DNA from: an uncultured bacterium
GTDB lineage: Bacteria > Joyebacterota > Joyebacteria > Joyebacterales > Joyebacteraceae
Length of the DNA: 64,000 nt
Assembly (NCBI GenBank): GCA_964521425.1
Contig: CAZFRO010000006.1
Location: 46,620 to 110,619, forward strand
Reading direction: 5' to 3'
Position 1 is the stretch's first letter. The number at the start of each line of letters is the position of its first letter. Below, piece after piece: positions 47,709 through 64,000 of the stretch. The notes under the pieces were generated by a model. That model worked only from the letters and a program-made list of their open reading frames with translations, searched no databases and had not been told where the DNA came from. Position numbers and translations under genes: made by a program.

Positions 47709-48734
47709 GTGGCTCCAATGGAACAGACAGCGACACTGCACGACAGAGAACTCAACGCCGGCTACCGCATGAAGCGGACAGCGGGCATGGCCGGCGTCTA
47801 TGCGGCCTTGGCCGTGGGTGTTGTGCTCATGATCGTGCCGTTCTGGTGGATGGTCTCGACCTCTCTCAAGTCTCCGCTTGAGATTCTCGAGTTCCCTCCC
47901 ACGTGGATTCCGACGGGGCACTTCGCCGAACTGGCGGATGGAACGTGGGAAGAGGTCTACATCGTTTCGAAGGACAAGATTGCGGGAACCGTGGACGTCA
48001 GGTCGCTGGACGGAGGTATCGAGCGCACGGTCGCCTCGAGCGCGGTCGCGGACAGGATCCGTTTCCGCTTCAGAAACTACGCGGAGGCATGGAGTCAGGC
48101 TCCGTTCGCCAGATACTATTTCAATACGATTCTGATCACCATCTTCGTGGTCATGGGCGTCCTCGTGACATCGTCGCTCGCGGCCTACGCCTTCGCGCGC
48201 ATGAAGTTCTGGGGGAGGGACAACATCTTCCTCATCTTCCTGTCGATGATGATGGTTCCGCAGCCTGTCTATCTGGTTCCGTCCTACATCATTCTCGTGA
48301 AGCTCGGGTGGATTGACACCTATCAGGCTCTGATAGTCCCGTGGTTCGCACACATCTTCAGCATTTTTCTCCTGAGACAGCACTTCAAGACGATACCAAA
48401 CGATCTCTACGATGCCGCGATCATCGACGGCTGCAGCAGGTTCGCATTTCTCTGGCGGGTCATGCTTCCTCTGTCCAAGGCAGTACTCGTCGCGGTTGTC
48501 ATCTTCACGGTCGTGGGAACGTGGAACTCGTTCCTGTGGCCTCTCGTGATGACGAACACGCCGGAAGTGCGACCGCTCCAGGTCGGTCTCGCCCGGTTCT
48601 CACAGGAGCAGGGGACAAGTCACGAACTAATGATGGCGGCGGCTGCCTTCTCGGTTGCACCGCTCATCATCGCCTACTTCTTCGCACAGAAGCAGATAAT
48701 CCAGAGCATGGCCACTTCGGGCTTGAAGGGCTAG
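47709..48734 (+). CDS. carbohydrate ABC transporter permease (MalG/UgpE-like)
   Basis: DAAIIDGCS EAA-loop. MKRTAG at 47769 is an alternative start. Confidence 0.8.
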   Translation: MAPMEQTATLHDRELNAGYRMKRTAGMAGVYAALAVGVVLMIVPFWWMVSTSLKSPLEILEFPPTWIPTGHFAELADGTWEEVYIVSKDKIAGTVDVRSLDGGIERTVASSAVADRIRFRFRNYAEAWSQAPFARYYFNTILITIFVVMGVLVTSSLAAYAFARMKFWGRDNIFLIFLSMMMVPQPVYLVPSYIILVKLGWIDTYQALIVPWFAHIFSIFLLRQHFKTIPNDLYDAAIIDGCSRFAFLWRVMLPLSKAVLVAVVIFTVVGTWNSFLWPLVMTNTPEVRPLQVGLARFSQEQGTSHELMMAAAAFSVAPLIIAYFFAQKQIIQSMATSGLKG

Positions 48735-48785
48735 CAGGAGCATGGCCACGTCGAGCCCTGAGGATCAGTTGATGGAGGAATCGGA

Positions 48786-50129: not shown

Positions 50130-51275
50130 ATGACACGACGCGGGAAGCACGGAGCGGTAGCCACGCTGGCACTGGCTGCACTGCTTGTTGCCGGCGTAGT
50201 CGCGGCTCAGGAGTTGACGATCTGCGAGGTGCAGCAGTACGACGCGAGCGGCTACTCACCATACAACGGGGAGACGGTGGCCGTCAGGGGGATTGTTACA
50301 TTCCCGCCGGGGTATGTCGTTCCCGGTGAACCGCCTGGACACACCTCGATGTACATCCAGTCGGGCGGCTGCGGAATCAACGTCTTCTGCTTCGATGAGC
50401 CGGCACTGGTTGACGTGGCACTCGGCGACAGCGTCAGAGTGACCGGTCAGGTCGAGGAGTATGTCGGCTCGAGCGCAGGAGCCACCACCGAGATATTGTG
50501 TGACAGCGGGGCGGACATCGAACTCCTTGTGGAGGGCGCGAGATTCGTAGAGCCGCTTGAACTCACGCTGTCGGATGGAATGATCGGGGAGGATCTCGAG
50601 GGCGTGCTTGTGAGAACTGTCGGAGTCATAACACTCCACCTGGGCTTCAAGATCGAACTCGAGGAACTGGACGACCCCGTTATCTACCAGGGTTACAACG
50701 ACAGCGTGGACTTCAACGTCTATGAAGTTGGGGACACGCTCGATGTGGCAGGAGTCGTCCTTCAGTACGACAGAAACCCACCGTACCTGGAGGGATTCGA
50801 GATCGTGCCACGCTTCCAGAGCGATATGAAGCACTTCGTGCCGTTTCCTCCGCCGTACGTCGGGTTCTCCTCCGATGTGCTGATCTCATTCCGTCAGATC
50901 ACGGCTGTCGACACAGCGGGCATGGCCGTGCTCGGAGACGAGAAGGCGCCTGTCTTCTACCCCGATATCGGGGAGATTCTGCCGATCTACTACAAGGCGC
51001 CTGCCGAGAGCCGCACCATTATGAAGCTCTACGATCTACAGGGCAGACTTGTACGCACGCTTCTGGATGAGGACTACGACGGTTACTCGGGTCTTCCAAA
51101 CCACTACGAGCAGCTCTTCCCGTACACCATGGGTGTGCGAGGCTGGGACGGGCGGGACGATCTCAGGCGGCTGGCTCCGGCCGGCACCTACATCTGTCGC
51201 TTTGAGGCGACGAAGCCGGGCGGGTCGACCGAAGTGGTCACGGCGCCTCTCGTCGTCGGAGCCAGGCTCAAGTGA
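50130..51275 (+). CDS. secreted OB-fold/beta-sandwich module protein (ExeM/NucH N-terminal-like, no nuclease domain) with T9SS CTD
   Basis: AAGGAGGAA SD. Signal peptide. ICEVQQYDASGYSPYNGETVAVRGIVT...MYIQSGGCGINVF...VRVTGQVEEYVGSSAGATTEI. LQYDRNPPYLEGFEIVPRFQSDM. CTD: IYYKAPAESRTIMKLYDLQGRLVRTLLDE...WDGRDDLRRLAPAGTYICRFE. Confidence 0.7.
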   Translation: MTRRGKHGAVATLALAALLVAGVVAAQELTICEVQQYDASGYSPYNGETVAVRGIVTFPPGYVVPGEPPGHTSMYIQSGGCGINVFCFDEPALVDVALGDSVRVTGQVEEYVGSSAGATTEILCDSGADIELLVEGARFVEPLELTLSDGMIGEDLEGVLVRTVGVITLHLGFKIELEELDDPVIYQGYNDSVDFNVYEVGDTLDVAGVVLQYDRNPPYLEGFEIVPRFQSDMKHFVPFPPPYVGFSSDVLISFRQITAVDTAGMAVLGDEKAPVFYPDIGEILPIYYKAPAESRTIMKLYDLQGRLVRTLLDEDYDGYSGLPNHYEQLFPYTMGVRGWDGRDDLRRLAPAGTYICRFEATKPGGSTEVVTAPLVVGARLK

Positions 51276-51313: not shown

Positions 51314-54300
51314 ATGAAGCTGAAGAGGGTAATTCTACTCGGGGTTCTCACTCTACTCATCGCGACCGCGGCATCGGCGGATGTGATAAACATCGCTGAT
51401 GTCAACGCTGACGATGAGGATGGGCACCCTATTCTGATGAACGATATCGTGACCATCGAGGGTGTTGTGACGGCGGGAACGGGGGCGTTTGCAGACACGA
51501 ACGAGATCTACGTCCAGGACGCCACGGGCGGAGTCCTCGTGATGCAGGTTCTCACGGCCGCCCCGTTCGTCGCTCCCGGTGACAGCGTCCGTGTGACGGG
51601 CAGTGTGGGCGTTGTCTACTTCAAGCGGACAATGCTGAGAGTGGGGGGAGGTGTCGCGGGATCACGAATCGACGTCCTGAGCACCGGTAATCCCGTGCCT
51701 GCACCGCTTGAACTCACTGCCCGTGACCTCTCTACATCGGGCGAGGATTACGAAGGAACATACGCGGTCGTGCGCGATGTATCACTTCTCCATCCGGGCG
51801 ACTGGCCGAGCACCGAGTACACGGACTTCCGCGAGCTTGACATCACGGATGCCGACACATCGTGTTGGCTCTGGGTGCACCCGTTCACCGATGTCGACGG
51901 CTCCTCGGCCCCTCTCGGGCAGTTCGATGTCTATGGCTTCGTCTCTCCTGACCCCACGCAGCCGAACAACGACGGCTACGGGCTCATTCCGAAAGCCAGG
52001 ATGGATATCCGCTCGGCAGGCTCGGGAGCAGGCTTCGCCACCGCGTCCCCGGAGTGGGTGTTCACGGGTGACGAGCAGGACATCGAGATCTCGCTTGTCG
52101 GAGAGTGCGACGCCCTCAGCCGGATAAGCGTGGCGATTCCGGGCGGATGGACCTTCTCGGGAGATGCGGCAGACATCGGTCTCGACGGCGCCGCGTTCCT
52201 GACGGCGGAGGTCGTGGCGCATCAGGACAGCACAAACACAACACTCATCACCATCCGGGGTGCGAATCTTATCTACGGTTCACCCGGTGACATCACCATC
52301 GAGAGCATGACCGTGCCCTCAACGGCCGGCGACTACGAATTCGTGGTCGGCACGTCCGTCCCGGGTGAGGATCCTGTCGTCATCGGCGATGGGGCCTGGG
52401 TGCACGTGGCAACGACAGGTGAGCCGGGTGATGTCGTCATCAACGAACTCTATCCAAACAGCGATGCCACAGGCGACATCGCGGAGTTCATCGAGCTTCA
52501 CAACCCATCCCGTGGAACGGTCGACATCTCCGGGTGGGTCCTGACCGATGTGGATGACTCGGGAACCTGCGGTGGCTCCAATCTCTGGGAGTTCCCGGTA
52601 GGTTCGGAGATCCCTGACGACGGCTACATTGTCGTTGCGCGTCACGCGATCGGCTACTACGTGCGCTTCGGTGTTGACCCCGATTACGAGCTTGTCGACG
52701 ATGACTACGCGGTCGATCCCGACGACGGTGGGGTTCCGAATCTCATGCTCATGTCACCGGTCGACGGCAACAGCCAGACGAGTCAGGAAATCATCCTGAT
52801 GGGCGGGGACGATGAGAACGGTGCGGTGCTGGAGGGCAAGCGCGTCTACGAGGCCGTCTATCTCTACACGGACAGGCTCAAGACCGACCTCATCGATGCC
52901 GTCGAGTACCGTGACCCGATCTACCTGGATGAGGATTTCTGCACAGGGGAGCCGGAACTCGGCGGTGATGATGACGCATTTGTTCCAGGCTTCGTTCCCC
53001 TGGACTACACGCTCGGTAGAGACGCGGTCTCGACTGACACGAACGCGAGTTCGACCGACCTCATCCTCTCATCAACACCGACTCCGGGTGACGTGAACGT
53101 TCCGACGGATACCGCACCGCCCGGCCTGGCCATGGTGACTGCTGCGGGGGATCGCTTTGTCAAGGTCGAGTTCTCGGAGCGGGTGGACGAGGATGATGCG
53201 ACGAACATCTCGAACTACGCGCTCAATGGGGGGCGTGAGATCTTGCGCGCACTGTTCTCCAGGGAAGAGCGGACGGTGTTTCTCTACGCGTCCGTCGACA
53301 GCACTGGGTTTCCGTACGAGCTTGACGTCAGCGGCGTCGCCGACGTCGCGGGGAATCAGATGATGACCGACTCCGCATCGTTCATAGGTTACTATCAGCA
53401 CTCAACACCGCTGTCCGAGATACAGGCCTACGACGAATACGGTCTCTCCCCTCTTGAGGGAGAGAGGGTCATCGCTCTTGGATTCGTCTCGGTTCCCCCC
53501 GGTGTCTTTCAGGTGGGCAAGACGAGTTTCTACATCCAGGATCTGGACGGGTACGGCATAAATATCTTCACGTCAGACCTTCTCCCTGATCCGCCCTCCA
53601 CGGGTGACCTCATCGAGATCGTCGGGGAGGTCGAGGAGTACATCTCCGGTGGGAACGGTGCGACAACGGAGATAATCGGAAGCGACGATGTTCCATTGAC
53701 CCTGATGGTACACGCGCGGGAACTCCACGCCATAGAGCCCGCCGTCATGCGCACCGGAGACATTGCGGACGAGGCGCTTGAGGGAACGCTCATAACGACG
53801 TCGGGTGTCATCATGAGTCTGGAGGGATTCGCCATCTACATCGATGACGGTTCCGGTTCCATCCAGGCCTATCAGAACTTCACCGACCTTGATTTCTCGA
53901 AGTACGCTTTCGGTGACAGCATCGGCGTGACCGGTGTTCTCCTCCAGTACGACTACTCGTCTCCGTTCTTCGGCGGGTATGAGCTGGCTCCGCGCTATGA
54001 GAGCGACATGGAGATCATGGAGGCGCACTTCGTTGCCGAAGCGGCAGTCACGGCGACGGCGCGAGTGCTCGACATCGACGAGGATGAAGTCATCGAGATA
54101 TCATACAACGGACCGCAGGCGAGCCACATCGCGGTCAGGGTCTTCGATCTTCAGGGCCGGTCGGTGGCGACGCTCTACGATGGTTGGTGCCTGGGACCAC
54201 AGAGAGCGACGTGGGACGGGAAGGATGACAGAGGTAAGGACCTGCCACCTGGCGTCTATGTCTGTCAGGTTCAGGCTAGAGCAAGAACCGGCGAGGCCGC

Positions 54301-54346
54301 GGGGAATGCGGCTGTGCCGATAGTTATCGGAATGAAGCTCCAATAG
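51314..54346 (+). CDS. secreted multi-domain T9SS cargo: OB-like module, Ig-like, lamin-tail domain (LTD), Ig-like, second OB-like module, CTD
   Basis: Signal peptide MKLKRVILLGVLTLLIATAASA. LTD signature VVINELYPNSDATGDIAEFIELHNPSRGTVDISGWVLTD. OB-like modules paralogous to gene 50130 (LLQYDYSSPFFGGYELAPRYESDME). CTD: RVFDLQGRSVATLYDG...WDGKDDRGKDLPPGVYVCQVQ. Confidence 0.8.
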   Translation: MKLKRVILLGVLTLLIATAASADVINIADVNADDEDGHPILMNDIVTIEGVVTAGTGAFADTNEIYVQDATGGVLVMQVLTAAPFVAPGDSVRVTGSVGVVYFKRTMLRVGGGVAGSRIDVLSTGNPVPAPLELTARDLSTSGEDYEGTYAVVRDVSLLHPGDWPSTEYTDFRELDITDADTSCWLWVHPFTDVDGSSAPLGQFDVYGFVSPDPTQPNNDGYGLIPKARMDIRSAGSGAGFATASPEWVFTGDEQDIEISLVGECDALSRISVAIPGGWTFSGDAADIGLDGAAFLTAEVVAHQDSTNTTLITIRGANLIYGSPGDITIESMTVPSTAGDYEFVVGTSVPGEDPVVIGDGAWVHVATTGEPGDVVINELYPNSDATGDIAEFIELHNPSRGTVDISGWVLTDVDDSGTCGGSNLWEFPVGSEIPDDGYIVVARHAIGYYVRFGVDPDYELVDDDYAVDPDDGGVPNLMLMSPVDGNSQTSQEIILMGGDDENGAVLEGKRVYEAVYLYTDRLKTDLIDAVEYRDPIYLDEDFCTGEPELGGDDDAFVPGFVPLDYTLGRDAVSTDTNASSTDLILSSTPTPGDVNVPTDTAPPGLAMVTAAGDRFVKVEFSERVDEDDATNISNYALNGGREILRALFSREERTVFLYASVDSTGFPYELDVSGVADVAGNQMMTDSASFIGYYQHSTPLSEIQAYDEYGLSPLEGERVIALGFVSVPPGVFQVGKTSFYIQDLDGYGINIFTSDLLPDPPSTGDLIEIVGEVEEYISGGNGATTEIIGSDDVPLTLMVHARELHAIEPAVMRTGDIADEALEGTLITTSGVIMSLEGFAIYIDDGSGSIQAYQNFTDLDFSKYAFGDSIGVTGVLLQYDYSSPFFGGYELAPRYESDMEIMEAHFVAEAAVTATARVLDIDEDEVIEISYNGPQASHIAVRVFDLQGRSVATLYDGWCLGPQRATWDGKDDRGKDLPPGVYVCQVQARARTGEAAGNAAVPIVIGMKLQ

Positions 54347-54398: not shown

Positions 54399-55280
54399 GT
54401 GAAAGGGATACGAATTGCAACCGCCGCGGCCGTCTTGGTCTGCCTCGTGCTTCCCGGCGTGGCCGGGGCCGCCGGCGTCTTTGACAACCTGATTCTCTCA
54501 CCGCGTGCGCGAGCCATGGGTGGGGCGTTTGTGGCGCTCTCAGATGATGAGACCGCGATCTTCACGAACCCCGCGGCTCTCGCGATGCAGGATGAGATCG
54601 GGATCTACTCGTCGTACGTGGATCTCTACGGCTACGATTTCCTGAAGCTCGGCTCCGGAGCCGTGACTATTCCCACTGACGTGGGAACCTTCGGAATCGG
54701 GGCCCGCTACTTCTCCACCGAATACGACGGCAGCGAACTCGAGAGCGAGTACTCGTTCGTGGTCGGCCAGGGCGTGATGCTGATGGAGGATGTGCATTCC
54801 TCCCTCGCGGTCGGATACGGACTGAGCCTCTACGGACTGAGTTTCCCGACCGAGTCCGTGGGAGGCGTGGAACTCGGGTCCGCCAACACCTTCGGCGTCG
54901 ACATCGGTGTGATAGGTACACTGAGAGGACGCACGCGGTTCGGCTTCTTCGCGAAGAACATCAACAACCCGAAGCTCGGCGACCCGGACGCGAAGGATCT
55001 CCCGCAGTGGTTCACGGCGGGCGTCTGCTACAGTCCGTACGGAGGTGTTCAGACTTGTCTCGAGATCCAGAAGCAGACCACGGAGGATCTGAGGGCCTGC
55101 TTCGGTCTTGAGTTCGAGATCAGCGACTACCTGACACTCCGCGGAGGCATCCAGAATCAGCCGAACAGGCTCTCGTTCGGGTTCGGCACCGGATGGAAGA
55201 TGGTCAAGCTCGACTACAGCTACACATCACACGAGACACTGCCGGGAAGTCACGTCTATGGCCTCGGCATCAAGTTCTAG
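54399..55280 (+). CDS. FadL/PorV/PorQ-superfamily outer-membrane beta-barrel
   Basis: GAAGGAGG sits before GTG 54399. Signal peptide. N-terminal plug-like motif SPRARAMGGAFVALSDDETAIFTNPAALA. Alternating amphipathic strands. C-terminal GLGIKF, an aromatic terminus. Confidence 0.6.
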   Translation: MKGIRIATAAAVLVCLVLPGVAGAAGVFDNLILSPRARAMGGAFVALSDDETAIFTNPAALAMQDEIGIYSSYVDLYGYDFLKLGSGAVTIPTDVGTFGIGARYFSTEYDGSELESEYSFVVGQGVMLMEDVHSSLAVGYGLSLYGLSFPTESVGGVELGSANTFGVDIGVIGTLRGRTRFGFFAKNINNPKLGDPDAKDLPQWFTAGVCYSPYGGVQTCLEIQKQTTEDLRACFGLEFEISDYLTLRGGIQNQPNRLSFGFGTGWKMVKLDYSYTSHETLPGSHVYGLGIKF

Positions 55281-55313
55281 TTTGCGGCCGATCAAGGGAC
55301 GGAGGGAGGTACG

Positions 55314-57791
55314 ATGAAACGACTCAGAGCCATGGGGTTTGTGGCGGTGTTGGTCTGTCTCATTCTGGCCGCTAATGCCCCATGTGTTCGCGCCGAGGAG
55401 CAGCTCGATCTGAATCGCGCAACACTCGAGGAGATACGGGCACTGCCCATCTCCGAGGACGTTGTCGAGGTGATCTGGCAGTACAGGGAGTACACCTCCT
55501 ATTTCAGGAGCGTCTACGACCTGAGAACACTCCCTGGCGTGGCAATAGAGGATTTTCTGCGGATCAAACCGCTTGTGAAGATCGTTCCGGTGCTGATCGA
55601 GGATGAGGAGCTTCTGCGAATCAACGAGATCTACTACCGGATCAGACAGTGGGAATCGGAGGAGGGTGGTGGTGAGGCGCTCGTGGATCACTGGATCGAT
55701 CTTGCGAAGGATCCCGTGAACATCAACACGGCGAGCTACAACGAGATCGCTAATCTCCAGAGCGTGTCGCCTCCGGACGCGGCGGCCATCTTCAAGAACA
55801 TGCGGAAGAACCGCGTGGAGCGGAGATCGCAGCTGAGAAACATTCCGGGGCTGACGTACTGGGGCTACTACAACGTGCGGAATTTCGTGCGTTACGATGA
55901 GCCCGCTGATGATGCCCCGTTTAGGGGAAGCTACCAGTTCCGGATCTACGACACTCCGTCTATCTTCGATACGGAGGAGCTTCTCAAGGAGGACCGGAAC
56001 TTCGCCGACGGAGGGTACGATTCCTGGTGGGATCGTCTCAATCTGGACGGCGCGGGTCCCATCTACCAGCACAAGTTCCGCGGAAGATGGGGGCAGGACA
56101 TTAACGCGGGGGCGCTGGCGCACAAGGGGTTCGGTGATGACGAACTTACCGCGTTCAAGTTCCACGCGACGATACGGGACAAGTCGATCGGTCCGGTGAC
56201 TTTCGACAACATAGTCATTGGCAACTACGCCCTCGCCTTTGGGCAGGGCCTGGTGATGCAGAACACCGACTACTTCAAGCCGAGGAACTCCGGCTACGGG
56301 TGGGACAAGAGGTACATGGGTGTTCTGGGTGATATCTCGCCGACACAGCAGTATCAGCTCAACGGTGTCGCCACGGAGATGACGCTCGGCAACGTGAAGA
56401 GCGTGGTCTTCTACTCTGATGACTGGAAGGATGCCGTTCTCAATCCCGACGGCACCATCAACCAGTACATCATCATGTCTCCTCGTATCAGCAACGACGA
56501 CCTGGCCGCGGCCGGCATGCGCGACATGAAGGACGTCGTTCACGAACAGACGGTAGGCGCGAATATCAAGTACGGCTTCGCGCCCGGTACGTGGATCGGC
56601 GTGAGCGCTTACGAGAGTCGCTACAACAAGTACTGGAAGTCGGGTTACGATCCGAACGGCACGATGGACGTCGCCTGGATCGTTCCGGAGGACAACGAGG
56701 ACAAACTTGTTGCCGCCGACGCCGAGTACTTCTCAAGTTACACAAGTCCGGGCAAGTTCAGACGCGTCTTCGGTGCGGAGTTCCAGTACGTCCTGGACAA
56801 CGTCGCCTTTGCCGGCGAGTACGCCTCGCTCGACAAGGACGGGGAGATCTTTGACCTTGAGGAGGATGCAAACGCGTTCGTCGTCAATGCCTACGCGTCC
56901 TACAGCAACCTGAGCTTCCTCGCTCTCTACCGGGACTACGATGTGGATTTCGACAATCCTTACAGTCGTGCGTTCTCCGAGTACAAGCGGTACAAGGGGA
57001 CGATACTCGAGGATCAGTACTATCTGTCGGATCCGATCTACGGTCTTCTCTACGTGAATTCCGTGGCGCCGCAGGCGGAACGGGGGCTGTACATCAACTC
57101 TCGATACAGGTTCTCCGACCGTCTGACTCCGTCGATCGAGTACGATGTCTGGGAGCGCAAGGCCGACGGTGCCGACTACTCCCGCCTGGTCGTCAAGCTC
57201 AGATTTCAGCCCATCTACAACATCGTGATGAATCTGAGACAGAAGTGGCAGGGACGTCTGGGTGAGAACACGCTGACACCTCAAGCCTACGAGCAGGTCG
57301 AGACCCGGTTCAGACTCGAGTACAGGCTCTCGAAGTACGATGAAGTCGAGTTCATGCTGTCGAGATCATGGATCGAGTGGCCGCCGAGGCCGCGGCTCTC
57401 GGGCAATCCGGAGGCTGACGGCGAGTATCCGGACATCGGATCGGCCGCGGTCCCGTCGTATGCGATTGGGGCCGCCGTCACCCACAACTTCAGTGACTGG
57501 TTGAAGGTGACGGGATCGGTTCTCTACTACGACGGCTTCATCTGGCTCTTCGAGGATGGGTCGTTCACGGTCATTGACGACCACGCCTTCAGGTACTGGA
57601 TATCGATCTCGGATCGTATCTCCGATCACCTGTCACTCAGGTTCAGGTGGACCAACAACCAGTCGTTCCCCCTGAGCTATGTGGACGCGAGGGAATACGG
57701 GGAGAACCCGCCGGGTGATCCGGAGCCGAACGGGTTCTACGTCAGGGACGATAATGCAGGGTACCGAATCCAGCTTGACTACTCGTGGTAG
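55314..57791 (+). CDS. outer-membrane beta-barrel protein with two N-terminal ComEA-type helix-hairpin-helix DNA-binding domains
   Basis: Signal peptide. HhH 1: DLNRATLEEIRALPISEDVVEVIWQYRE...LRTLPGVAIEDF. HhH 2: VNINTASYNEIANLQSVSPPDAAAIFKNMRKNRV...LRNIPGLT. A Tyr/Gly-rich region of about 650 aa has beta-strand periodicity and ends LDYSW. Confidence 0.7.
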   Translation: MKRLRAMGFVAVLVCLILAANAPCVRAEEQLDLNRATLEEIRALPISEDVVEVIWQYREYTSYFRSVYDLRTLPGVAIEDFLRIKPLVKIVPVLIEDEELLRINEIYYRIRQWESEEGGGEALVDHWIDLAKDPVNINTASYNEIANLQSVSPPDAAAIFKNMRKNRVERRSQLRNIPGLTYWGYYNVRNFVRYDEPADDAPFRGSYQFRIYDTPSIFDTEELLKEDRNFADGGYDSWWDRLNLDGAGPIYQHKFRGRWGQDINAGALAHKGFGDDELTAFKFHATIRDKSIGPVTFDNIVIGNYALAFGQGLVMQNTDYFKPRNSGYGWDKRYMGVLGDISPTQQYQLNGVATEMTLGNVKSVVFYSDDWKDAVLNPDGTINQYIIMSPRISNDDLAAAGMRDMKDVVHEQTVGANIKYGFAPGTWIGVSAYESRYNKYWKSGYDPNGTMDVAWIVPEDNEDKLVAADAEYFSSYTSPGKFRRVFGAEFQYVLDNVAFAGEYASLDKDGEIFDLEEDANAFVVNAYASYSNLSFLALYRDYDVDFDNPYSRAFSEYKRYKGTILEDQYYLSDPIYGLLYVNSVAPQAERGLYINSRYRFSDRLTPSIEYDVWERKADGADYSRLVVKLRFQPIYNIVMNLRQKWQGRLGENTLTPQAYEQVETRFRLEYRLSKYDEVEFMLSRSWIEWPPRPRLSGNPEADGEYPDIGSAAVPSYAIGAAVTHNFSDWLKVTGSVLYYDGFIWLFEDGSFTVIDDHAFRYWISISDRISDHLSLRFRWTNNQSFPLSYVDAREYGENPPGDPEPNGFYVRDDNAGYRIQLDYSW

Positions 57792-57859
57792 CCGAGGCGG
57801 GGGCAATGGATATGAATCGAGAGCAAAGTCAGGGAATCAATAGATTGGGGAGGCAGAAG

Positions 57860-59086
57860 ATGCGACGAGGATTCACGGTCGTGATGGCTCTCCTCGCTGT
57901 CGCGAGTCTGTGCGGGAGCGCCGCGGCGTTCTCGTACGCAGAGTGGCACTACGGGGAGTTCGTACCAGCCGGCGACGCCAGGTCGCTGGCGCTTGGTGGG
58001 GCCGGACTCGCGTCCGCAGACGGGGCGCGTGGTGCGGGACTGAACCCCGCGCTGGTTGCGAAGACTGTCGGGCTCGAGCTTGCTATGAGCGCGATGCTGC
58101 TCACTGCGGAGGAGTCAAGAGAGGCGCCTCTCTACGACAGTTTTGAGGGCATCATCGGTTACAACACTTACGCATTCAACACGACGATGTACGATCGCTA
58201 CGTCGGGACGATCTCGTGGAAGCCGTCGGGCGACTACGACTGGGCTCCGGCTGTGGCGATCGGATACCACCCACGGCTGGACATGTCCTACAGCTACCAC
58301 GTCCAGTACAGGGACTCCGACACGCAGGCTGAGCCGATGGACAAGATTCTCTACGACTACTGGAACGAGGGCGAGGGCGGCGTCAACGCCTACACCGTGA
58401 CCCTGGCCCACGAGGTCGTACCGGAAGTCTACCTGGGGCTCGGCGTCGACTTCCTGAGAGGGCAGGCGGACGCAGAGGAGCGGTGGGTCTATCCGGAGTA
58501 CTCCGAGGAGACCGATGTAGACGGCTGGTTCGAATTGGATGGTTTCTCGGGGACCCAATTCACCGTCGGGCTTCTGGTCGAGAAGCTGCATCGTGTGGAC
58601 GTGGCCGTCGTATATCGCTCGAGCTTCGAACTGGCCGCCGACTACAGCGGTGAGAGCACGGAGGACGAGGCGGACGACGGGAACCTCACGTATTCGTATC
58701 CCTCAGCGATCGGTGTGGGGTTCGAGTACCACCCGCGCAACGAGATAATGACCACCGTGAGTCTGGATATCGAATACACGGAGTGGTCGAAGTTTGAGGA
58801 CAGCCTCACTGACGATCTGGATCTCAGCGACACGATCGAGTACCGCGTGGGCGTGGAGCATCAGTTCTTCAACACGACACAGGCCCGGTTTGGTTTCCTC
58901 TACCAGCCTTCCTACATGGATGACGAGACCACGAGAGCTGCATTCAGCATCGGTCTCGGGTTGGACCTCGTTGGCGTGAGGTTGGATGTAGGGGGGCAGC
59001 TTGGCGTGAGGGAGTACGATATCGAAGACGGTCGCATCCGTGAGACGACGACCACGGCGATGGTGAGTCTTTCGCACCGATTCTAG
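57860..59086 (+). CDS. FadL/PorV-like outer-membrane beta-barrel (paralogous fold to 54399)
   Basis: GGGGAGG sits before ATG 57860. Signal peptide. Motif ARSLALGGAGLASADGARGAGLNPA. Ends SLSHRF. Confidence 0.55.
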   Translation: MRRGFTVVMALLAVASLCGSAAAFSYAEWHYGEFVPAGDARSLALGGAGLASADGARGAGLNPALVAKTVGLELAMSAMLLTAEESREAPLYDSFEGIIGYNTYAFNTTMYDRYVGTISWKPSGDYDWAPAVAIGYHPRLDMSYSYHVQYRDSDTQAEPMDKILYDYWNEGEGGVNAYTVTLAHEVVPEVYLGLGVDFLRGQADAEERWVYPEYSEETDVDGWFELDGFSGTQFTVGLLVEKLHRVDVAVVYRSSFELAADYSGESTEDEADDGNLTYSYPSAIGVGFEYHPRNEIMTTVSLDIEYTEWSKFEDSLTDDLDLSDTIEYRVGVEHQFFNTTQARFGFLYQPSYMDDETTRAAFSIGLGLDLVGVRLDVGGQLGVREYDIEDGRIRETTTTAMVSLSHRF

Positions 59087-59118: not shown

Positions 59119-60873
59119 ATGATAATTCGACGAAGGCTCACGCTGGTACTTGCGGTTGCCATAGCTGTCCTTGCTGTGGCGCCGGCGTGGGGCGCTTCAG
59201 ACACCGATGGATTGTTCCGCCTGTCTGTCGTGTTCACGAACGACATACACGGTGGGATCGACCCGTCGGGAGCTACCTTTATGAACAGGGAGTTCCCGCC
59301 GCCTCTGGGTGGAGCCGCCTCGGCTGTCACCTACATTGAGATGTTGCGGGAGAGGGCGAGGGAAGAGGGTGGAGCTGTCCTGCTGATTGATCAGGGCGAC
59401 ATCTTTCAGGGTACTCCGGTCGGCAACTTCCGGAAGGGTGAGTCCGTCATCGAGTACTTCAATCATGTCGGATTCGATCTCTGGACGATCGGCAACCACG
59501 ATTTCGATGAGGGAGCCGAGAACCTCTGGCACCTGATCGAGATGTCAGAAATGCCGGTACTCTCGGCGAACCTGGTGTGGGAGGAGACCGGAGAACCGGT
59601 CGAGCACGTCGAGCCCTACATCATCAAGGACTACGGCGGCGTCAAGGTGGCCATCGTAGGACTGACGACGACGGACACTCCCAAGATGGCTTTTCCCGCT
59701 CATGTTGCGGGCGTGAAGTTCCTGTCTTCCATCGAGACGGCGGAGCGCTACGTCAAGGAAGTCAGAGAGGCAGGGGCGGACATCGTCATCTTCTCCGGGC
59801 ATATGGGGCTTCCGTACGATCCCATCTCCGGCTATGCGAAGCTCATCGAAGAAGAGCAGGAGCGGGACGAGGAGGCCGTGCGCGAGCCGCTTGAGGAGAA
59901 GAAGTGGGGTGCGCATGCGATGGAGATCGCCCACAAGGTGCCCGGCATCGACGCCTTCTTCGCCGGTCATATCCATAAGGGATTTGATGAGCCGTGGGAG
60001 GAGCCGTCCACACACACCATCATCTTCCAGACCTACGGGCGGGGCTCCGGAGTTGGCAACGTCGATCTCCTGATCGACCCCGTGACGAAGACGCTGGTCG
60101 GATATGAACTTCCGTCGTACCGTGGTGACCTCATCACGCTCTTCGAGGATCAGTGGTGGCCGAATGAGGAGACCACTGAGATGATCACCGCTCTGGTCGA
60201 TGAGGCGGAAGTCGGGATGGACCGCATCATTGGCTACACCGATATCGATCTTTCGCGGGGAGGAGATGGTGAGACCAGAATGGGGAACCTGGTCTGCAGC
60301 GCCATGCTCGAAGAAGTTGATGCTGATTTCGCGTTCACGAACCTCGGTGGTATCCGGGACGAGATCCCGACCGGCCCCGTGACGCCGCGCCAGGTCTTCA
60401 AGGTTCTTCCGTTTGGCAACAGCCTCATGGTGTTCGAGATGGACGGGAGGCTCTTGAAGGAAGTAGTCGAGTATCGCGTCAGCGCCGACCACCATGGTGT
60501 CTACATGGCCGGTGGCAGGATCGTCTACAACAAGACACGACCGGACTACGACCGCGTGACCTCCTTCACGATCGGTGGTGAGCCATGGGAGGCGGACCGC
60601 ATCTACCGCGTCGTCACGAGTGACTTCCTTGCGGTGGGCAATGCGGGTCTCTACATGCTTCCCGACATACCTGATGACAAGAAGCGGAGAACCTCGACGA
60701 CGTGTATGGACGCGGCTGTCCACTACATTGAACGTCATACTCCGATAGGACCTCAGCTCGACGGGCGATGGGTGAGGGATGATGAGGCCGAGGTCAGTGC
60801 CGCTCTCATCGCAGCCATGGAGGGCATGGAGCCCTTAGCACCCCCCGTGGAGGAGGCTAGCGGGCCCTACTAG
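59119..60873 (+). CDS. secreted bifunctional metallophosphatase / 5'-nucleotidase (UshA family)
   Basis: GAGGAGAAG SD. Signal peptide. VVFTNDIHGG, DQGDIFQGTPVGNF and GNHDFDEG metallophosphatase motifs. C-terminal 5'-nucleotidase domain (FTNLGGIRDEIPTGPVT, FGNSL). Confidence 0.85.
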   Translation: MIIRRRLTLVLAVAIAVLAVAPAWGASDTDGLFRLSVVFTNDIHGGIDPSGATFMNREFPPPLGGAASAVTYIEMLRERAREEGGAVLLIDQGDIFQGTPVGNFRKGESVIEYFNHVGFDLWTIGNHDFDEGAENLWHLIEMSEMPVLSANLVWEETGEPVEHVEPYIIKDYGGVKVAIVGLTTTDTPKMAFPAHVAGVKFLSSIETAERYVKEVREAGADIVIFSGHMGLPYDPISGYAKLIEEEQERDEEAVREPLEEKKWGAHAMEIAHKVPGIDAFFAGHIHKGFDEPWEEPSTHTIIFQTYGRGSGVGNVDLLIDPVTKTLVGYELPSYRGDLITLFEDQWWPNEETTEMITALVDEAEVGMDRIIGYTDIDLSRGGDGETRMGNLVCSAMLEEVDADFAFTNLGGIRDEIPTGPVTPRQVFKVLPFGNSLMVFEMDGRLLKEVVEYRVSADHHGVYMAGGRIVYNKTRPDYDRVTSFTIGGEPWEADRIYRVVTSDFLAVGNAGLYMLPDIPDDKKRRTSTTCMDAAVHYIERHTPIGPQLDGRWVRDDEAEVSAALIAAMEGMEPLAPPVEEASGPY

Positions 60874-61210: not shown

Positions 61211-64000
61211 ATGATGAAGCTGTCTGTTCTGGTCGCAGCCGTGCTCGTTCTGGTATTCGGCGCGGCCATGGCTAATCCTTCAGGTACCGATGTTGTTATC
61301 AATGAGATCTACCCGGACGCCAACGAGTACTATGACGGCGCCGAGTTCATTGAGCTCTACAATCCGACCGGAAGTTCGATTGACATCGGCGGATTTGTTC
61401 TCTGCGGAGTCGAGTACGACCAGCTCTGCGGAGGCGAAGACCGCTGGCAGTTCCCGTTTGGGACGACCATCGCCGCCGGGGGCTACATCACGGTCGCGAA
61501 GGACGGGGCCGACGGTGACGACGGATTCTACGAGGAGTTCGGGATCTACCCCGACTTCGAGATGTTCGATGCGTCGTTTGAGTTCGATAACGACAGCATG
61601 TTTGTCCCAAACATGAATCTCCTGGACCCCGATCCTGCGACCGGCTACAGCGACGAGATACAGCTGGTCGGCGGCAAGGGCTACGGCACCATGTGCGGCG
61701 GCTACAGCAATGGTGACGTTGTGTATCTGTACACGACAGGATCTCTGATAACTCTGGTCGACCTTGTCGAGTACGCCGATATGGAGGTCTGCACCGAGGA
61801 TCCGTGTTTCGGCGATGACGGTATCCCGGACAATGCGTTCGACGAGATCCCGTACCTCGGCAACACACTTGGTCGTGACGCCTCCAGCACGGACACCGAT
61901 AGCAGCATCACGGACTGGCAGATGCAGGCTCCCACGCCCGGCGTTCAGAACATTCAGAACACGCCGCCGTGGATTCGTTCGGTCATGTACTCGCCGATCC
62001 CACCGATGGACACGGACGCCGTCGACATCACGGCTGTCGTGACCGATGATGGCAGCGTAGATTCAGTCATGGTCTACTACCGTGTGGACGCGGGGCCGTG
62101 GGGCACAGTTGCCGCATCGGGAGTGGACACACTCTACACGGGTACCATTGCGGCCCAGGCGAACGGATCCCAGGTCCAGTACTTCGTGCGTGCCGTCGAC
62201 AATCATGGCGCCGGCATCAACTACCCGTCCGAGGGTTTCTCTGATCCGTACGCCTACTCGGTCGGCTTCACGACCATCTACGATGTGCAGTTCGTACCTT
62301 TTGGTGGCGATGCGTCGCCTCTCGAAGGCCAGACTGTCAACGTGACGGGTATTGTGACTGCAGCGAAGGGCGAGTTCTCCGATTCATTCTGCATGATCCA
62401 CGAAGGCAATACGTACTTCGAGGGCATCAAGATCTACGCCACGTACAACTACGACGGCGAGATCAATGAGGGTGACGAGATCACGGTCTCCGGTTTTGTG
62501 ACCGAGTACTACGGTGAGACCGAGATCTATGTTCCTTTCAATGAGGCAGTCACGATTCTCTCGACGGGCAATGCGAACTACGGCTATGCCGCAGTCACAA
62601 CGGCCGACATCGATCCTGATGACACCGGCTCCGAGGCGTATGAAGGTCAGCTCATCAGCGTCAGCAACGTGACGGTGACGGCCGAGCCCGACGGCTACGG
62701 CCAGTGGTACATCGAGGATGCCTCGGCAGTGGGTGCCATGGTCGATGACTACGGGTACTACAGCTACACCCCGCAGCTCTTTGATGTGCTCGACGAGGTT
62801 CGTGGCGTACTGATGTACAGCTACGACCAGTTCAAGATCGAGCCGCGGTACGACGAAGATATCGTTGGTCCGCCGAGGATCGCGGACGTTCGCTACTCGC
62901 CGATACCGCCGGTGGCCGGCAATGTCACGATTACTGCCGACATCACCGACAACCAGGGCATCAGTTCGGCAACGCTGAACTACGCTCTTTCGGCGGCAGG
63001 TCCCTTCAGCCAGACGCCGATGACGACATCGCGCGATATCTACTCCGCGACGATCGGTCCGTACGTCGATGGCAACAGGATCTACTACTTCATCGAGGCC
63101 AGCGACGGCGTGATGGATGCCAGGAAGCCGACTGCGGGCTCGTACAGCCTCTACATCGGCATGGTCGACATCTTCGACATCCAGTTTGTCGCCGCCCCTG
63201 GTGTGGATGACACGTCACCGCTCGACACGCTTGCGGTCAACACGACCGGTATCGTGACGGCGGAGCCGGGTGTCTACAGCGACTACTATTTCACGATCCA
63301 GACCGAGGACGTGGCACGCGGTGCGTGGCAGGGAATCAAGGTCTACGATCGCACCGGTTCGGCGAGCTTCGAGCGCGGCGATGAGATCATCGTCTGTGGC
63401 GAGGTTCAGGAGAACTGGGGCGAGACTGAGGTCTCCCTGCACTTCGTCGAGGGAGCAGTCCTCGTCGAGTCGCGCGGCAGCATGCCGGATGCAGTCTCCA
63501 TCGCTACGGCCGATCTCCAGACCAAGACCACCGGCGAGCAGTACGAGGGCGTCTACGTTCACGCCGAGGACGCTACGGTCATGGTTGCGGACATGGGCTA
63601 CGGCGAATGGGCCATCACAAACGGGGCCGCTGGTGATACGTGCCGCGTCGATGATGACGCTCCGTACACCTACGAGCCGGTAGAGGGCGACAACGTCTTC
63701 GTTCTTGGTACGGTCATGTTCTCGTATGGCAACTACAAGCTCGAGCCGCGCGGCGATGACGATATCGCCGTCAATCCGGTCGGTGTCGAAGACGGCATCG
63801 TCGGTGCCAAGCTCGATCTCGGCCAGAACATGCCGAACCCGTTCAACCCGAAGACGACCATCGCCTTCACACTGCCTGAGCCGACGGATGTCACGATCGA
63901 GGTCTACGATGTGACCGGTCGCAGGATCGTCACACTCATGAGCGACCGCCTCGAAGCGGGTGGTCACTTCGTCGAGTGGTCGGGACGTGGTGACAACGGT
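61211..64000 (+). CDS. secreted multi-domain T9SS cargo (3' end beyond window): lamin-tail domain, FN3/Ig-like modules, two OB-like modules, CTD beginning at about 63815
   Basis: AAGGAGG sits before ATG 61211. Signal peptide MMKLSVLVAAVLVLVFGAAMA. LTD: VVINEIYPDANEYYDGAEFIELYNPTGSSIDIGGFVLCG. OB-like: IYDVQFVPFGG...TVNVTGIVTA and IFDIQFVAAPG...NTTGIVTA. CTD start: NMPNPFNPKTTIAFTL...VTIEVYDVTGRRIVTL. Confidence 0.8.
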   Translation, partial: MMKLSVLVAAVLVLVFGAAMANPSGTDVVINEIYPDANEYYDGAEFIELYNPTGSSIDIGGFVLCGVEYDQLCGGEDRWQFPFGTTIAAGGYITVAKDGADGDDGFYEEFGIYPDFEMFDASFEFDNDSMFVPNMNLLDPDPATGYSDEIQLVGGKGYGTMCGGYSNGDVVYLYTTGSLITLVDLVEYADMEVCTEDPCFGDDGIPDNAFDEIPYLGNTLGRDASSTDTDSSITDWQMQAPTPGVQNIQNTPPWIRSVMYSPIPPMDTDAVDITAVVTDDGSVDSVMVYYRVDAGPWGTVAASGVDTLYTGTIAAQANGSQVQYFVRAVDNHGAGINYPSEGFSDPYAYSVGFTTIYDVQFVPFGGDASPLEGQTVNVTGIVTAAKGEFSDSFCMIHEGNTYFEGIKIYATYNYDGEINEGDEITVSGFVTEYYGETEIYVPFNEAVTILSTGNANYGYAAVTTADIDPDDTGSEAYEGQLISVSNVTVTAEPDGYGQWYIEDASAVGAMVDDYGYYSYTPQLFDVLDEVRGVLMYSYDQFKIEPRYDEDIVGPPRIADVRYSPIPPVAGNVTITADITDNQGISSATLNYALSAAGPFSQTPMTTSRDIYSATIGPYVDGNRIYYFIEASDGVMDARKPTAGSYSLYIGMVDIFDIQFVAAPGVDDTSPLDTLAVNTTGIVTAEPGVYSDYYFTIQTEDVARGAWQGIKVYDRTGSASFERGDEIIVCGEVQENWGETEVSLHFVEGAVLVESRGSMPDAVSIATADLQTKTTGEQYEGVYVHAEDATVMVADMGYGEWAITNGAAGDTCRVDDDAPYTYEPVEGDNVFVLGTVMFSYGNYKLEPRGDDDIAVNPVGVEDGIVGAKLDLGQNMPNPFNPKTTIAFTLPEPTDVTIEVYDVTGRRIVTLMSDRLEAGGHFVEWSGRGDNG

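What the first reader, a model, noticed from the sequence alone, without database searches (positions are those of the whole stretch)
54399..59086. Two FadL/PorV/PorQ-like barrels bracket the HhH barrel
Genes 54399 and 57860 share the N-terminal motif (S/A)(P/A)R(A/S)(M/L)(A)(L/M)GGA...(S/A)DD/G...(F/L)NPA(A/L)(L/V)A and aromatic C-termini. In T9SS organisms PorV-type barrels shuttle CTD cargo, and PorQ-type barrels anchor surface components. Their position between CTD-cargo genes suggests locus-specific shuttle or anchor proteins. They could alternatively be FadL-type substrate channels for nucleosides or hydrophobic compounds.
Basis: inference. Interest (0 to 1): 0.5.

Follow-up and report, generated by a model that had tools for sequence, protein, structure and literature searches.

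The report
Accessory barrels of a DNA-scavenging module
Two small outer-membrane barrels, one related to the secretion carrier PorV and one to the assembly subunit BamG, are fixed partners of a large barrel carrying DNA-binding domains, in a gene module conserved across several uncultured phyla that probably captures and imports extracellular DNA for food.

Summary
Genes 54399-55280 (293 aa) and 57860-59086 (408 aa) are homologous 14-stranded FadL-superfamily barrels with a shared N-terminal hatch motif and C-terminal Phe. They flank an 825-aa barrel protein that starts with two ComEA-type helix-hairpin-helix (HhH) domains.

The order [quoted passage not shown] recurs in every locus found through the HhH barrel: 25/25 have barrel 1 and 20/20 have barrel 2. 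This holds down to 22% identity and in Elusimicrobia. In three contigs barrel 1 is fused to HhH domains.

The window is otherwise full of nucleotide and nucleobase catabolism genes.

Best reading (confidence about 0.5): the two barrels are dedicated subunits of an outer-membrane DNA-capture/uptake complex. Barrel 1 would bridge the HhH barrel and the CTD-bearing DNA receptor, as PorV bridges SprA and cargo. Barrel 2's role is less clear. The genomic association is shown; physical contact and DNA transport are inferred.

The parts
54399..55280 (+). Barrel 1: 293-aa PorV-like 14-stranded outer-membrane barrel (signal peptide about aa 1-24, hatch aa 29-63, C-terminal Phe)
54495..54584 (+). Hatch motif of barrel 1 (LSPRARAMGGAFVALSDDETAIFTNPAALA), the most conserved segment of the family
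   Evidence: R36, D50, N57 and L61 are invariant in alignment A1. Mean information is 3.14 bits, against 2.59 for the mature protein.
55314..57791 (+). HhH barrel: signal peptide, two ComEA-type HHH_3 domains (aa 28-89 and 133-193), then a region of about 630 aa with no known relative, inferred to be a beta-barrel, ending in Trp
   Evidence: Pfam HHH_3 is found twice. The profile hits ComEA and EEPD1 HhH domains only. The C-terminal region has just 199 relatives among 1.84 billion cluster representatives. The barrel fold itself was not modelled here.
57860..59086 (+). Barrel 2: 408-aa BamG/FadL-like outer-membrane barrel with hatch (GDARSLALGGAG...LNPALVA) and C-terminal Phe
   Evidence: The family profile hits B. 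thetaiotaomicron BamG at E=6.4e-14 and P. gingivalis BamG at 3e-6, CymD at 2e-3 and PorV at 0.15. Foldseek gives TM 0.69-0.74 to BamG chains and 0.65-0.70 to FadL. Pfam Toluene_X scores 30.9 bits (cutoff 29.7). NCBIfam BamG scores 64 bits, far below the cutoff of 250.
57971..58060 (+). Hatch motif of barrel 2
   Evidence: N62, P63 and A64 are invariant, and R41, G46 and G47 nearly invariant, in alignment A2.
51314..54346 (+). LTD1024: secreted surface protein with DUF5689, lamin-tail domain, Ig-like domain, OB fold and a FlgD_ig-type CTD, immediately upstream of barrel 1
   Evidence: Pfam domains. The gene caller starts it at ATG 51314, giving 1010 aa. Its CTD belongs to a subtype that travels with barrel 1.
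50130..51275 (+). OB381: secreted OB-fold protein carrying the same CTD subtype
   Evidence: Weak ExeM/NucH and OB-fold hits. CTD HMM E=2e-29. CTD clustering.
59119..60873 (+). UshA-like 5'-nucleotidase with signal peptide, immediately downstream of barrel 2
   Evidence: Pfam Metallophos plus 5_nucleotid_C. It holds this position in the Eisenbacteria loci and in L082-L085.
61214..64000 (+). LTD956: second LTD protein with a different (Por_Secre_tail/FlgD_ig) CTD type, cut by the window end
   Evidence: Gene calls and Pfam families on the same contig. Its CTD falls in a separate clade. A promoter-like site lies at 61018-61046.
46675..50081 (+). CUT1-type ABC importer: two permeases and a lipoprotein solute-binding protein, with no ATPase gene in the locus
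   Evidence: BPD_transp_1 twice and SBP_bac_1. LAGC lipobox in the binding protein. Syntenic in the Eisenbacteria loci and in L084.
42918..46603 (+). Purple-acid-phosphatase-like metallophosphoesterase and an MBL-fold lipoprotein (candidate phosphodiesterases or nucleases)
   Evidence: Pfam. Lipobox. An MBL-fold gene is also present in L084.

Best explanation
The two barrels are dedicated accessory subunits of an outer-membrane machine built around the HhH barrel, whose job is to capture extracellular DNA and bring it, or its fragments, into the periplasm for breakdown.

Proposed steps (all inferred, none shown):
1. The LTD/OB proteins are exported using their C-terminal sorting domain and sit on the cell surface as DNA receptors.
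2. Barrel 1, a PorV paralogue, docks on the HhH barrel and holds the receptor's CTD with its extracellular loops, as PorV bridges the SprA translocon and the CTD of cargo.
3. DNA passes the outer membrane at the HhH barrel, and the periplasmic ComEA-like HhH domains bind it and prevent back-sliding.
4. Barrel 2, a BamG-like FadL-fold barrel, either packs against the HhH barrel as a structural or gating subunit, as BamG packs against BamA, or less likely lets small products through.
5. Periplasmic phosphoesterases and the 5'-nucleotidase release nucleosides and phosphate, and ABC transporters take these up.

Shown here: fold and family assignment of both barrels, the invariant gene order across phyla, the barrel 1-HhH fusions, the CTD subtype co-distribution, and the catabolic context.

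Inferred: every physical contact, the membrane topology, and DNA as the transported substrate.
For: Family assignment:
- Barrel 2 profile against BamG gives E=6e-14, with Foldseek TM 0.69-0.74.
- All 32 members of alignment A1 hit PorV_fam, and all 34 members of A2 hit BamG best.

Synteny in loci selected through the HhH barrel, not through the small barrels (L082-L106):
- Barrel 1 lies directly upstream in 25/25.
- Barrel 2 lies directly downstream in 20/20 with enough sequence.
- A CTD-bearing gene lies upstream of barrel 1 in 23/23 with enough sequence; Pfam finds an LTD in the seven of these that were scanned.
- This holds down to 22% HhH-barrel identity (L103, L104, L106) and in Elusimicrobia (L056).
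- Gaps are small (33, 68 and 32 nt) and no terminator-like site lies on the + strand.

Gene fusion: barrel 1 carries one or two C-terminal HHH_3 domains in L056, L105 and L106.

Each pairwise link also occurs alone:
- A short-form HhH barrel plus a 273-aa PorV-like barrel, with no CTD gene, in eight Gemmatimonadota/Latescibacterota-type loci.
- An OB+CTD protein plus a barrel 1 orthologue, with no HhH barrel, in five Cloacimonadota loci.

CTD evidence:
- The CTDs of OB381, LTD1024 and their counterparts in other phyla form one clade. That clade is separate from the other CTDs of the same genomes.
- 27 of 69 distant PorV-family genes have a CTD gene ending within 450 nt upstream, against an expected 0.01 per gene.

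Loop conservation: extracellular loops L1, L4, L6 and L7 of barrel 1 are as conserved as its strands.

Precedents:
- PorV bridges SprA and the cargo CTD (PMC10994853).
- PorP-like barrels anchor cognate type B CTD proteins encoded next to them (PMC9143113, PMC12618676).
- BamG is a FadL-fold barrel bound to BamA that anchors BamH (PMC12611786).

Context: the neighbours are phosphoesterases, a 5'-nucleotidase and ABC importers, plus dihydropyrimidine dehydrogenase, adenine deaminase and amidohydrolases. In Cloacimonadota they are thymidine kinase, nucleoside phosphorylase and a Na/Pi cotransporter.
Against: - No interaction was tested; conserved gene order would equally fit proteins that share a pathway without touching.
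Its strand number, any lateral opening and whether DNA could pass are unknown.
- Barrel 1 has very short extracellular loops compared with PorV (293 versus about 400 aa). Those loops are what bind the CTD in PorV.
- Short-form loci lack any CTD gene nearby, so CTD anchoring cannot be the universal role of this subfamily.
- Barrel 2 keeps the FadL hatch/NPA motif and a break in the third strand (141-144), so a transport role is not excluded.
- No nuclease domain was identified in the module.
- The trees are neighbour-joining on short, divergent alignments, and the CTD HMM was seeded from LTD1024.
- Whether these genomes have SprA, PorU or a motor is unknown.
Confidence: 0.5

Rival explanations
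1. Pathway partners only: one or both barrels are FadL-type passive channels. They would let small products of extracellular nucleic-acid breakdown, or unrelated hydrophobic compounds, cross the outer membrane. They would sit in the operon for co-expression, not as subunits of a complex.
For: Barrel 2 passes the Pfam Toluene_X threshold (30.9 versus 29.7 bits). It superposes on FadL almost as well as on BamG (TM 0.65-0.70). It keeps the hatch with an invariant NPA and a broken third strand in the model. The 5'-nucleotidase, which is not a barrel partner, is conserved in the same module, so synteny alone does not prove contact.
Against: FadL channels move hydrophobic molecules by lateral release into the membrane (established knowledge; summarised in PMC12611786). 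The locus otherwise deals with hydrophilic nucleotides and nucleosides. Barrel 2 is closer in sequence to BamG, a non-transporting FadL fold, than to any transporter. Barrel 1 is clearly PorV-like and not FadL-like (E=5e-20 versus 0.28), lacks long binding loops, and is fused to DNA-binding domains in three contigs.
Confidence: 0.2
2. Housekeeping type IX secretion components: barrel 1 is the organism's general PorV carrier and barrel 2 its PorQ-type anchor. On this view they merely happen to be encoded between CTD cargo genes.
For: PorV_fam and PorQ are the best NCBIfam hits for barrel 1. The genome encodes many CTD proteins, seven in this window. No other PorV-like gene lies in the window.
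Against: Scores are below every curated cutoff: PorV_fam 76.8 of 90, PorQ 31 of 220, PorV 20 of 250. Barrel 2 is BamG/FadL-like, not PorQ-like. Other Eisenbacteria carry a canonical PorV_fam gene (195 bits) in a different context. Four CTD genes elsewhere in the window have no such barrel next to them. The subfamily is tied to the HhH barrel in every module locus.
Confidence: 0.07
3. Assembly helpers: barrel 2 (BamG-like), and perhaps barrel 1, act transiently with the BAM machinery to fold and insert the unusually large HhH barrel. They would not be part of the mature complex.
For: BamG is the closest characterised relative of barrel 2 and is required for outer-membrane protein insertion in Bacteroidota (PMC12611786). 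F. johnsoniae has a BamG paralogue of unknown role.
Against: The BamG model score is far below the cutoff (64 of 250). No bamA or bamH-like gene is nearby. Short-form HhH barrels manage without a barrel 2 neighbour. Dedicated one-client assembly factors of this fold are not known.
Confidence: 0.1
4. Surface DNA anchoring rather than uptake: the complex displays HhH and LTD/OB domains to hold extracellular DNA on the cell, for matrix or adhesion. The small barrels would act as anchors, and no DNA would be transported.
For: LTD, OB and HhH domains are all DNA-binding modules. N-terminal passenger plus C-terminal barrel is also the autotransporter layout (established knowledge).
Against: A C-terminal HhH fusion on barrel 1 should be periplasmic, because barrel C-termini face the periplasm (established topology). 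The surrounding genes are catabolic and importers, not matrix genes.
Confidence: 0.08

Closest known systems
PorV (type IX secretion carrier, F. johnsoniae; PDB 6h3i/8gl6 chain F)
   Different: Barrel 1 is about 100 residues shorter with minimal loops. It falls below the PorV (20 of 250 bits) and PorV/PorQ family (77 of 90 bits) cutoffs. Its large partner is an HhH-domain barrel, not SprA. In some lineages it is fused to DNA-binding HhH domains. It looks dedicated to one locus rather than serving all type A cargo.
PorP/SprF-like carriers with cognate type B CTD proteins; also PorQ-PorZ
   Same: The gene pair 'CTD protein then small barrel' recurs, with the barrel acting as a dedicated anchor for the neighbour's CTD (PMC9143113, PMC12618676). 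A distinct CTD subtype co-distributes with barrel 1. In L056 a CHU_C-type protein followed by a PorP_SprF barrel sits in the same locus.
   Different: Barrel 1 gives no PorP_SprF hit in the Pfam or NCBIfam scans at E<=1. Its CTD is FlgD_ig-like, with CHU_C only at E=0.15. The pair is embedded in a four-gene core with the HhH barrel and barrel 2.
BamG (FadL-fold subunit of the Bacteroidota BAM complex; PDB 9hiv_F, 9hjm_F, 9n2d_B)
   Same: BamG is the closest characterised relative of barrel 2 by sequence profile (E=6e-14) and fold (TM 0.69-0.74). It shows that a FadL-fold barrel can be a structural partner of a larger barrel and an anchor for a surface protein.
   Different: Barrel 2 scores 64 of 250 bits on the BamG model. 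It is encoded in a DNA-scavenging module, not with BAM genes. No lipoprotein equivalent to BamH is present in the module. Its N-terminal tail before the hatch motif is short (about 16 aa), compared with the extended 32-residue tail of BamG.
FadL/TodX hydrophobic-compound channels
   Same: Both barrels share the fold, the hatch and the NPA motif. Barrel 2 passes the Pfam Toluene_X threshold.
   Different: There is no hydrophobic-substrate context. Barrel 1 fails the Pfam threshold (15 of 29.7 bits). Both are closer to non-transporting relatives.
ComEA plus PilQ DNA uptake in competent diderm bacteria
   Same: A ComEA-type HhH DNA-binding module is associated with an outer-membrane conduit. ComEA pulls DNA into the periplasm (PMC3879209, abstract as listed).
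   Different: Here the HhH domains are covalently fused to beta-barrels instead of being a free periplasmic protein. There are no secretin or pilus genes in the locus. The context is catabolic, not recombination.

Membership tests
FadL superfamily (fold level) | 14-stranded outer-membrane barrel with an N-terminal hatch inside the lumen | tested here: met
FadL/TodX transporters (Pfam PF03349 Toluene_X) | Score at or above the Pfam gathering threshold (29.7 bits) | tested here: inconclusive
   Barrel 1 scores 15.4 bits (not met). Barrel 2 scores 30.9 bits (just met).
FadL/TodX transporters | Conserved NPA motif in the hatch | tested here: met
   Barrel 1 has N57-P58-A59 and barrel 2 has N62-P63-A64, invariant or nearly so. 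The motif is shared with PorV-family proteins, so it does not discriminate.
FadL/TodX transporters | Kink in strand S3 giving a lateral opening, and a hydrophobic substrate groove in long extracellular loops | not testable with these tools
   The barrel 2 model shows a break at residues 141-144 of the third strand, but model coordinates could not be inspected. Barrel 1 has no long loops.
PorV/PorQ family (NCBIfam NF033709) | Score at or above the curated cutoff (90 bits) | tested here: not met
   Barrel 1 scores 76.8 bits and barrel 2 scores 33 bits. Canonical members from other Eisenbacteria score 194-195 bits.
PorV (NF033710) and PorQ (NF033711) equivalogs | Score at or above the curated cutoffs (250 and 220 bits) | tested here: not met
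   Barrel 1 scores 19.7 on PorV and 31.2 on PorQ. Barrel 2 scores 9.8 on PorV and gives no PorQ hit.
PorV (homology level) | Significant sequence-profile match to experimentally characterised PorV | tested here: met
   The A1 profile against 6h3i_F gives E=5.4e-20 and 75 bits. For barrel 2 it is not met (E=0.15).
T9SS carrier/anchor barrels (PorV, PorQ, PorP-like) | Genetic linkage to a CTD-bearing protein | tested here: met
   For barrel 1, a CTD gene lies directly upstream in every module locus with upstream sequence. It also does so in 27 of 69 distant relatives, against 0.01 expected per gene. A distinct CTD subtype travels with it. No such link was seen for barrel 2.
T9SS carrier/anchor barrels | Genome encodes the T9SS core (SprA/Sov, PorU, PorK-N, motor) | not testable with these tools
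No core gene was seen among the window ORFs scanned. No paper links Eisenbacteria and T9SS.
PorP/SprF family (PF11751, TIGR03519) | Family model hit and a type B (CHU_C) CTD partner | tested here: not met
   Barrel 1 gives no PorP_SprF hit at E<=1. Only 2 of 32 relatives hit TIGR03519. The LTD1024 CTD hits CHU_C at E=0.15 only.
BamG (NCBIfam NF053685) | Score at or above the curated cutoff (250 bits) | tested here: not met
   Barrel 2 scores 64 bits, and the best of its 34 relatives reaches E=1.7e-22.
BamG | Part of the BAM complex with BamA and BamH | not tested
   No BamA- or BamH-like gene appears in any of the module loci examined. Physical association cannot be tested here.

The most novel reading that the evidence does not exclude
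The four-gene core (LTD/OB receptor with CTD, PorV-like barrel, HhH barrel, BamG-like barrel) encodes a previously undescribed three-barrel outer-membrane DNA importer. It is found in Eiseniibacteriota, Elusimicrobia and related uncultured phyla. In this reading a PorV paralogue has been re-used to tether a surface DNA receptor to a DNA-conducting barrel. ComEA-like domains fused to the barrels would ratchet DNA into the periplasm, with no secretin or pilus. It would be a nucleic-acid counterpart of the Bacteroidota SusCD 'utilisome'.
Probability: 0.3. Interest if true: 0.85.

Novelty: new variant of a known kind. Interest (0 to 1): 0.62.

Why it matters
PorV-type and BamG-type barrels are known only as parts of the type IX secretion and BAM machines of Bacteroidota. 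Here each has a paralogue tied to a different large barrel that carries competence-type DNA-binding domains. The module is conserved across several uncultured phyla.

If the proposed complex is real, it extends the idea that FadL-fold barrels serve as adaptors docking on bigger barrels. It would also give a concrete, testable candidate for how diderm bacteria without a known competence secretin take up extracellular DNA as a phosphorus, nitrogen and carbon source. That process matters in sediments and soils, where these lineages live.

A separate point is that the gene pair 'CTD protein followed by a PorV-family barrel' is common outside Bacteroidota. Cognate carrier/anchor pairs may therefore not be limited to type B CTDs.

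Tried and rejected
- Single-sequence searches of both barrels against PDB sequences gave nothing useful. Family profiles were needed.
- Pairwise BLASTP of the two barrels was barely significant. The hhalign profile comparison settled the homology.
- The HhH-barrel profile shows no relation to barrel 2. It hits no solved structure beyond its HhH domains, so it is not a FadL or Omp85 relative detectable by sequence.
- Pfam finds no PorV or PorP domain in barrel 1.
- The AlphaFold-database fold library was unavailable.
- Literature searches linking Eisenbacteria to T9SS, or PorV to ComEA/HhH, found nothing. One search failed on term syntax.
- Housekeeping PorV/PorQ was considered and rejected. 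Genuine BamG was considered and rejected (64 of 250 bits, no BAM genes nearby). PorP/SprF membership was considered and rejected (no model hit).
Full report
**Observation**

The + strand between 54399 and 59086 carries three tightly spaced genes.
- Barrel 1 runs from GTG 54399 to 55280 (293 aa).
- A protein of 825 aa runs from 55314 to 57791. It has a signal peptide and two ComEA-type HHH_3 domains, followed by about 630 residues of unknown family ending in Trp.
- Barrel 2 runs to 59086. Its likely start is ATG 57860 (408 aa), which has a GGGGAGG ribosome-binding site and is the start chosen by an independent gene caller on an identical contig. The upstream GTG 57785 is probably not used.

Gaps between the genes are 33, 68 and 32 nt. 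Both small proteins have signal peptides, the motif R-x-x-A-[ML]-G-G-A ... D-[DG] ... N-P-A, and a terminal Phe.

Pairwise BLASTP between them is marginal. Profile-profile alignment of the two families gives 98% probability and E=1.6e-13 over 228 columns. AlphaFold2 models (pLDDT 86.4 and 85.0) show barrels with an N-terminal hatch.

**What each barrel is**

Barrel 1 is a PorV relative.
- Its family profile finds F. johnsoniae PorV at E=5.4e-20, while a FadL homologue scores only 0.28.
- Foldseek's top hit is PorV in the substrate-bound translocon.
- It still falls below every curated NCBIfam threshold: PorV/PorQ family 76.8 of 90 bits, PorQ 31 of 220, PorV 20 of 250. It is about 100 residues shorter than PorV.

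Barrel 2 is different.
- Its profile finds Bacteroides BamG at E=6.4e-14 and Porphyromonas BamG at 3e-6, then the FadL-type channel CymD at 2e-3, and PorV only at 0.15.
- Foldseek gives TM 0.69-0.74 to BamG chains, 0.65-0.70 to FadL and 0.43 to PorV.
- It just passes Pfam Toluene_X (30.9 versus 29.7 bits) but reaches only 64 of the 250 bits required for BamG.

BamG is a FadL-fold barrel that binds the back of BamA and anchors the surface lipoprotein BamH (PMC12611786).

**Organism and locus**

Named homologues come from Candidatus Eisenbacteria, now Eiseniibacteriota. The gene order is:
1. Metallophosphoesterase.
2. MBL-fold lipoprotein.
3. Two ABC permeases and a binding lipoprotein.
4. OB-fold protein with a CTD (OB381).
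5. LTD/OB protein with a CTD (LTD1024).
6. Barrel 1.
7. HhH barrel.
8. Barrel 2.
9. UshA-like 5'-nucleotidase.
10. A second LTD protein with a CTD.

The rest of the window encodes a dihydropyrimidine dehydrogenase pair, amidohydrolases, adenine deaminase and another ABC importer. The setting is therefore nucleic-acid and nucleobase scavenging. No T9SS core gene was seen among the window ORFs that were scanned.

**Comparative evidence**

The whole order, from the first ABC permease to the second LTD protein, is kept in Eisenbacteria loci from 97% down to 63% barrel-1 identity.

Loci retrieved through the HhH barrel, independently of the small barrels, show the same core. These comprise four contexts at 36-46% identity and 21 metagenome contigs, four of them at only 22% identity.
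- Barrel 1 lies directly upstream in 25 of 25.
- Barrel 2 lies directly downstream in all 20 with enough sequence.
- A CTD-bearing gene lies upstream of barrel 1 in all 23 with enough sequence. Pfam finds an LTD in the seven of these that were scanned.

An Elusimicrobia genome has the same four genes.

In that genome, in a near-identical metagenome contig and in a third, unrelated contig, barrel 1 is fused at its C-terminus to one or two HHH_3 domains. Barrel C-termini face the periplasm (established topology), so these DNA-binding domains should be periplasmic.

Two partial forms also exist.
- In eight Gemmatimonadota/Latescibacterota-type loci, a 273-aa PorV-like barrel precedes a shorter HhH barrel of 570-600 aa. 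That protein is homologous to the long form (jackhmmer E about 1e-36), shares the FGQGL motif and ends in Trp. These loci have no CTD gene and no barrel 2.
- In five Cloacimonadota loci, a barrel 1 orthologue (34-37% identity) follows an OB-fold/CTD protein with no HhH barrel nearby. In the locus annotated (L015) the neighbours are thymidine kinase, a nucleoside phosphorylase and a Na/Pi cotransporter.

In a neighbour-joining tree the HhH-linked barrels, together with a few CTD-linked ones without an HhH barrel, fall in two adjacent clades. The canonical PorV/PorQ genes of other Eisenbacteria lie apart; those score 195 bits and sit in a different context.

**Link to CTDs**

The window has seven CTD proteins, and only LTD1024 is followed by a PorV-like barrel. 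In a tree of CTDs, those of OB381, LTD1024 and their counterparts in other phyla, including Cloacimonadota, form one clade. The CTDs of the downstream LTD protein, the beta-helix protein and the cohesin proteins of the same genomes lie elsewhere.

Among more distant PorV-family genes, 27 of 69 have a CTD-ending ORF within 450 nt upstream on the same strand. Chance would give about 0.01 per gene. Their cargo domains are diverse: FG-GAP, beta-helix and Ig-like.

This parallels the known pairing of type B CTD proteins with PorP/SprF-like carriers that then anchor them (PMC9143113, PMC12618676). [quoted passage not shown]

Extracellular loops L1, L4, L6 and L7 of barrel 1 are as conserved as its strands. 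That is unusual for surface loops and fits a fixed protein partner. The loop assignment rests on the model and on standard topology.

**Interpretation**

The best-supported reading (about 0.5) is that both barrels are dedicated subunits of an outer-membrane complex centred on the HhH barrel, which captures extracellular DNA and passes it to periplasmic phosphoesterases and importers. Barrel 1 would act as the PorV-like adaptor between the large barrel and the CTD of the LTD/OB receptor. Each of those two links is also seen on its own in some lineage, and the HhH fusion ties barrel 1 to DNA handling.

Barrel 2's role is less constrained. It may be a BamG-like structural or gating partner, or a channel for products.

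The rivals are:
- pathway-only FadL-type channels (0.2);
- assembly helpers (0.1);
- surface DNA anchoring without uptake (0.08);
- housekeeping PorV/PorQ (0.07).

Family assignment, synteny, fusions, CTD co-distribution and context are shown. Contacts, topology and the transported substrate are inferred.

**Limits**

- No nuclease domain was identified.
- The trees are distance-based on short alignments.
- The CTD HMM was seeded from this locus.
- Taxon labels of metagenome bins may be wrong.
- The presence of sprA and porU in these genomes could not be checked.

**Novelty**

No paper in the searchable library combines PorV with ComEA or HhH domains. The HhH-barrel domain has only 199 relatives among 1.84 billion cluster representatives. 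The barrels themselves are new variants of known kinds. The module they belong to appears undescribed.

Noticed in passing
L056 9623-11290; L105 about 6068-7300; L106 2217-3848: The barrel 1 homologue is fused at its C-terminus to one (L056, L105) or two (L106) ComEA-type HHH_3 domains, just upstream of the HhH barrel.
   Followed up: partly
L056 9623-9990: A 23S_rRNA_IVP (four-helix bundle, bAvd-like) coding region runs in frame, with no stop codon, into the barrel 1-like ORF. It may be a real fusion, a lost stop or an assembly artefact.
   Followed up: no
L019 9998-12518; also L021, L022, L027, L028, L032, L036, L051: A two-gene short form occurs in Gemmatimonadota/Latescibacterota-type genomes. 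It is a 273-aa PorV-like barrel plus a 570-600-aa protein with one HhH domain and a smaller homologous barrel. There is no LTD, CTD or FadL-like gene nearby.
   Followed up: partly
L015 5183-13276 (Cloacimonadota; L014, L016-L018 are similar): The barrel 1 orthologue follows an OB-fold/FlgD_ig-CTD protein. In L015 the neighbours are thymidine kinase, a nucleoside phosphorylase, signal peptidase II and a Na/Pi cotransporter with PhoU domains. No HhH barrel lies within 10 kb.
   Followed up: partly
L025, L030, L033, L034, L038, L046, L049, L050, L055, L061, L068, L071, L074 and others: Gene pairs of a large surface protein ending in a FlgD_ig/CHU_C-like CTD, followed by a PorV/PorQ-family barrel, are common in many uncultured phyla (27 of 69). 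The cargo domains are diverse (FG-GAP, beta-helix, Ig-like).
   Followed up: partly
window 5371-15447: Four consecutive FlgD_ig-CTD proteins: a 1906-aa beta-helix/NosD-like protein and three cohesin-domain proteins. None is followed by a PorV-like barrel.
   Followed up: no
window 1310-3873, 17058-23276, 33758-40557: The rest of the window is rich in nucleobase and nucleoside catabolism and uptake genes. It holds a dihydropyrimidine-dehydrogenase-like pair, two amidohydrolases, a PLP enzyme, adenine deaminase, an MFS transporter, and a two-domain ABC ATPase with a BPD_transp_2 permease.
   Followed up: partly
window 46675-50081: The CUT1-type ABC importer in the module has two permeases and a binding lipoprotein but no ATPase gene in the locus.
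   Followed up: no
window 51272-51314: The longest ORF for LTD1024 starts at GTG 51272 and overlaps the OB381 stop codon. The gene caller prefers ATG 51314 (1010 aa), which begins a typical signal peptide (MKLKRVILLG...).
   Followed up: partly
window 61018-61046: A strong sigma-70-like promoter match (11 of 12, with extended -10 TG) lies just before the second LTD gene. No terminator-like site lies on the + strand between 46500 and 61000. This suggests one long operon followed by a separate unit.
   Followed up: no
L043 3969-12425; L045 4263-12452; L078 similar: Other Eisenbacteria carry a canonical PorV/PorQ-family gene (195 bits). In L045 it is preceded by a SusC/TonB-like protein and an unannotated protein of about 1000 aa, and followed by a GWxTD-domain protein. 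In L043 the preceding ~1000-aa protein has a weak type A sorting tail.
   Followed up: partly
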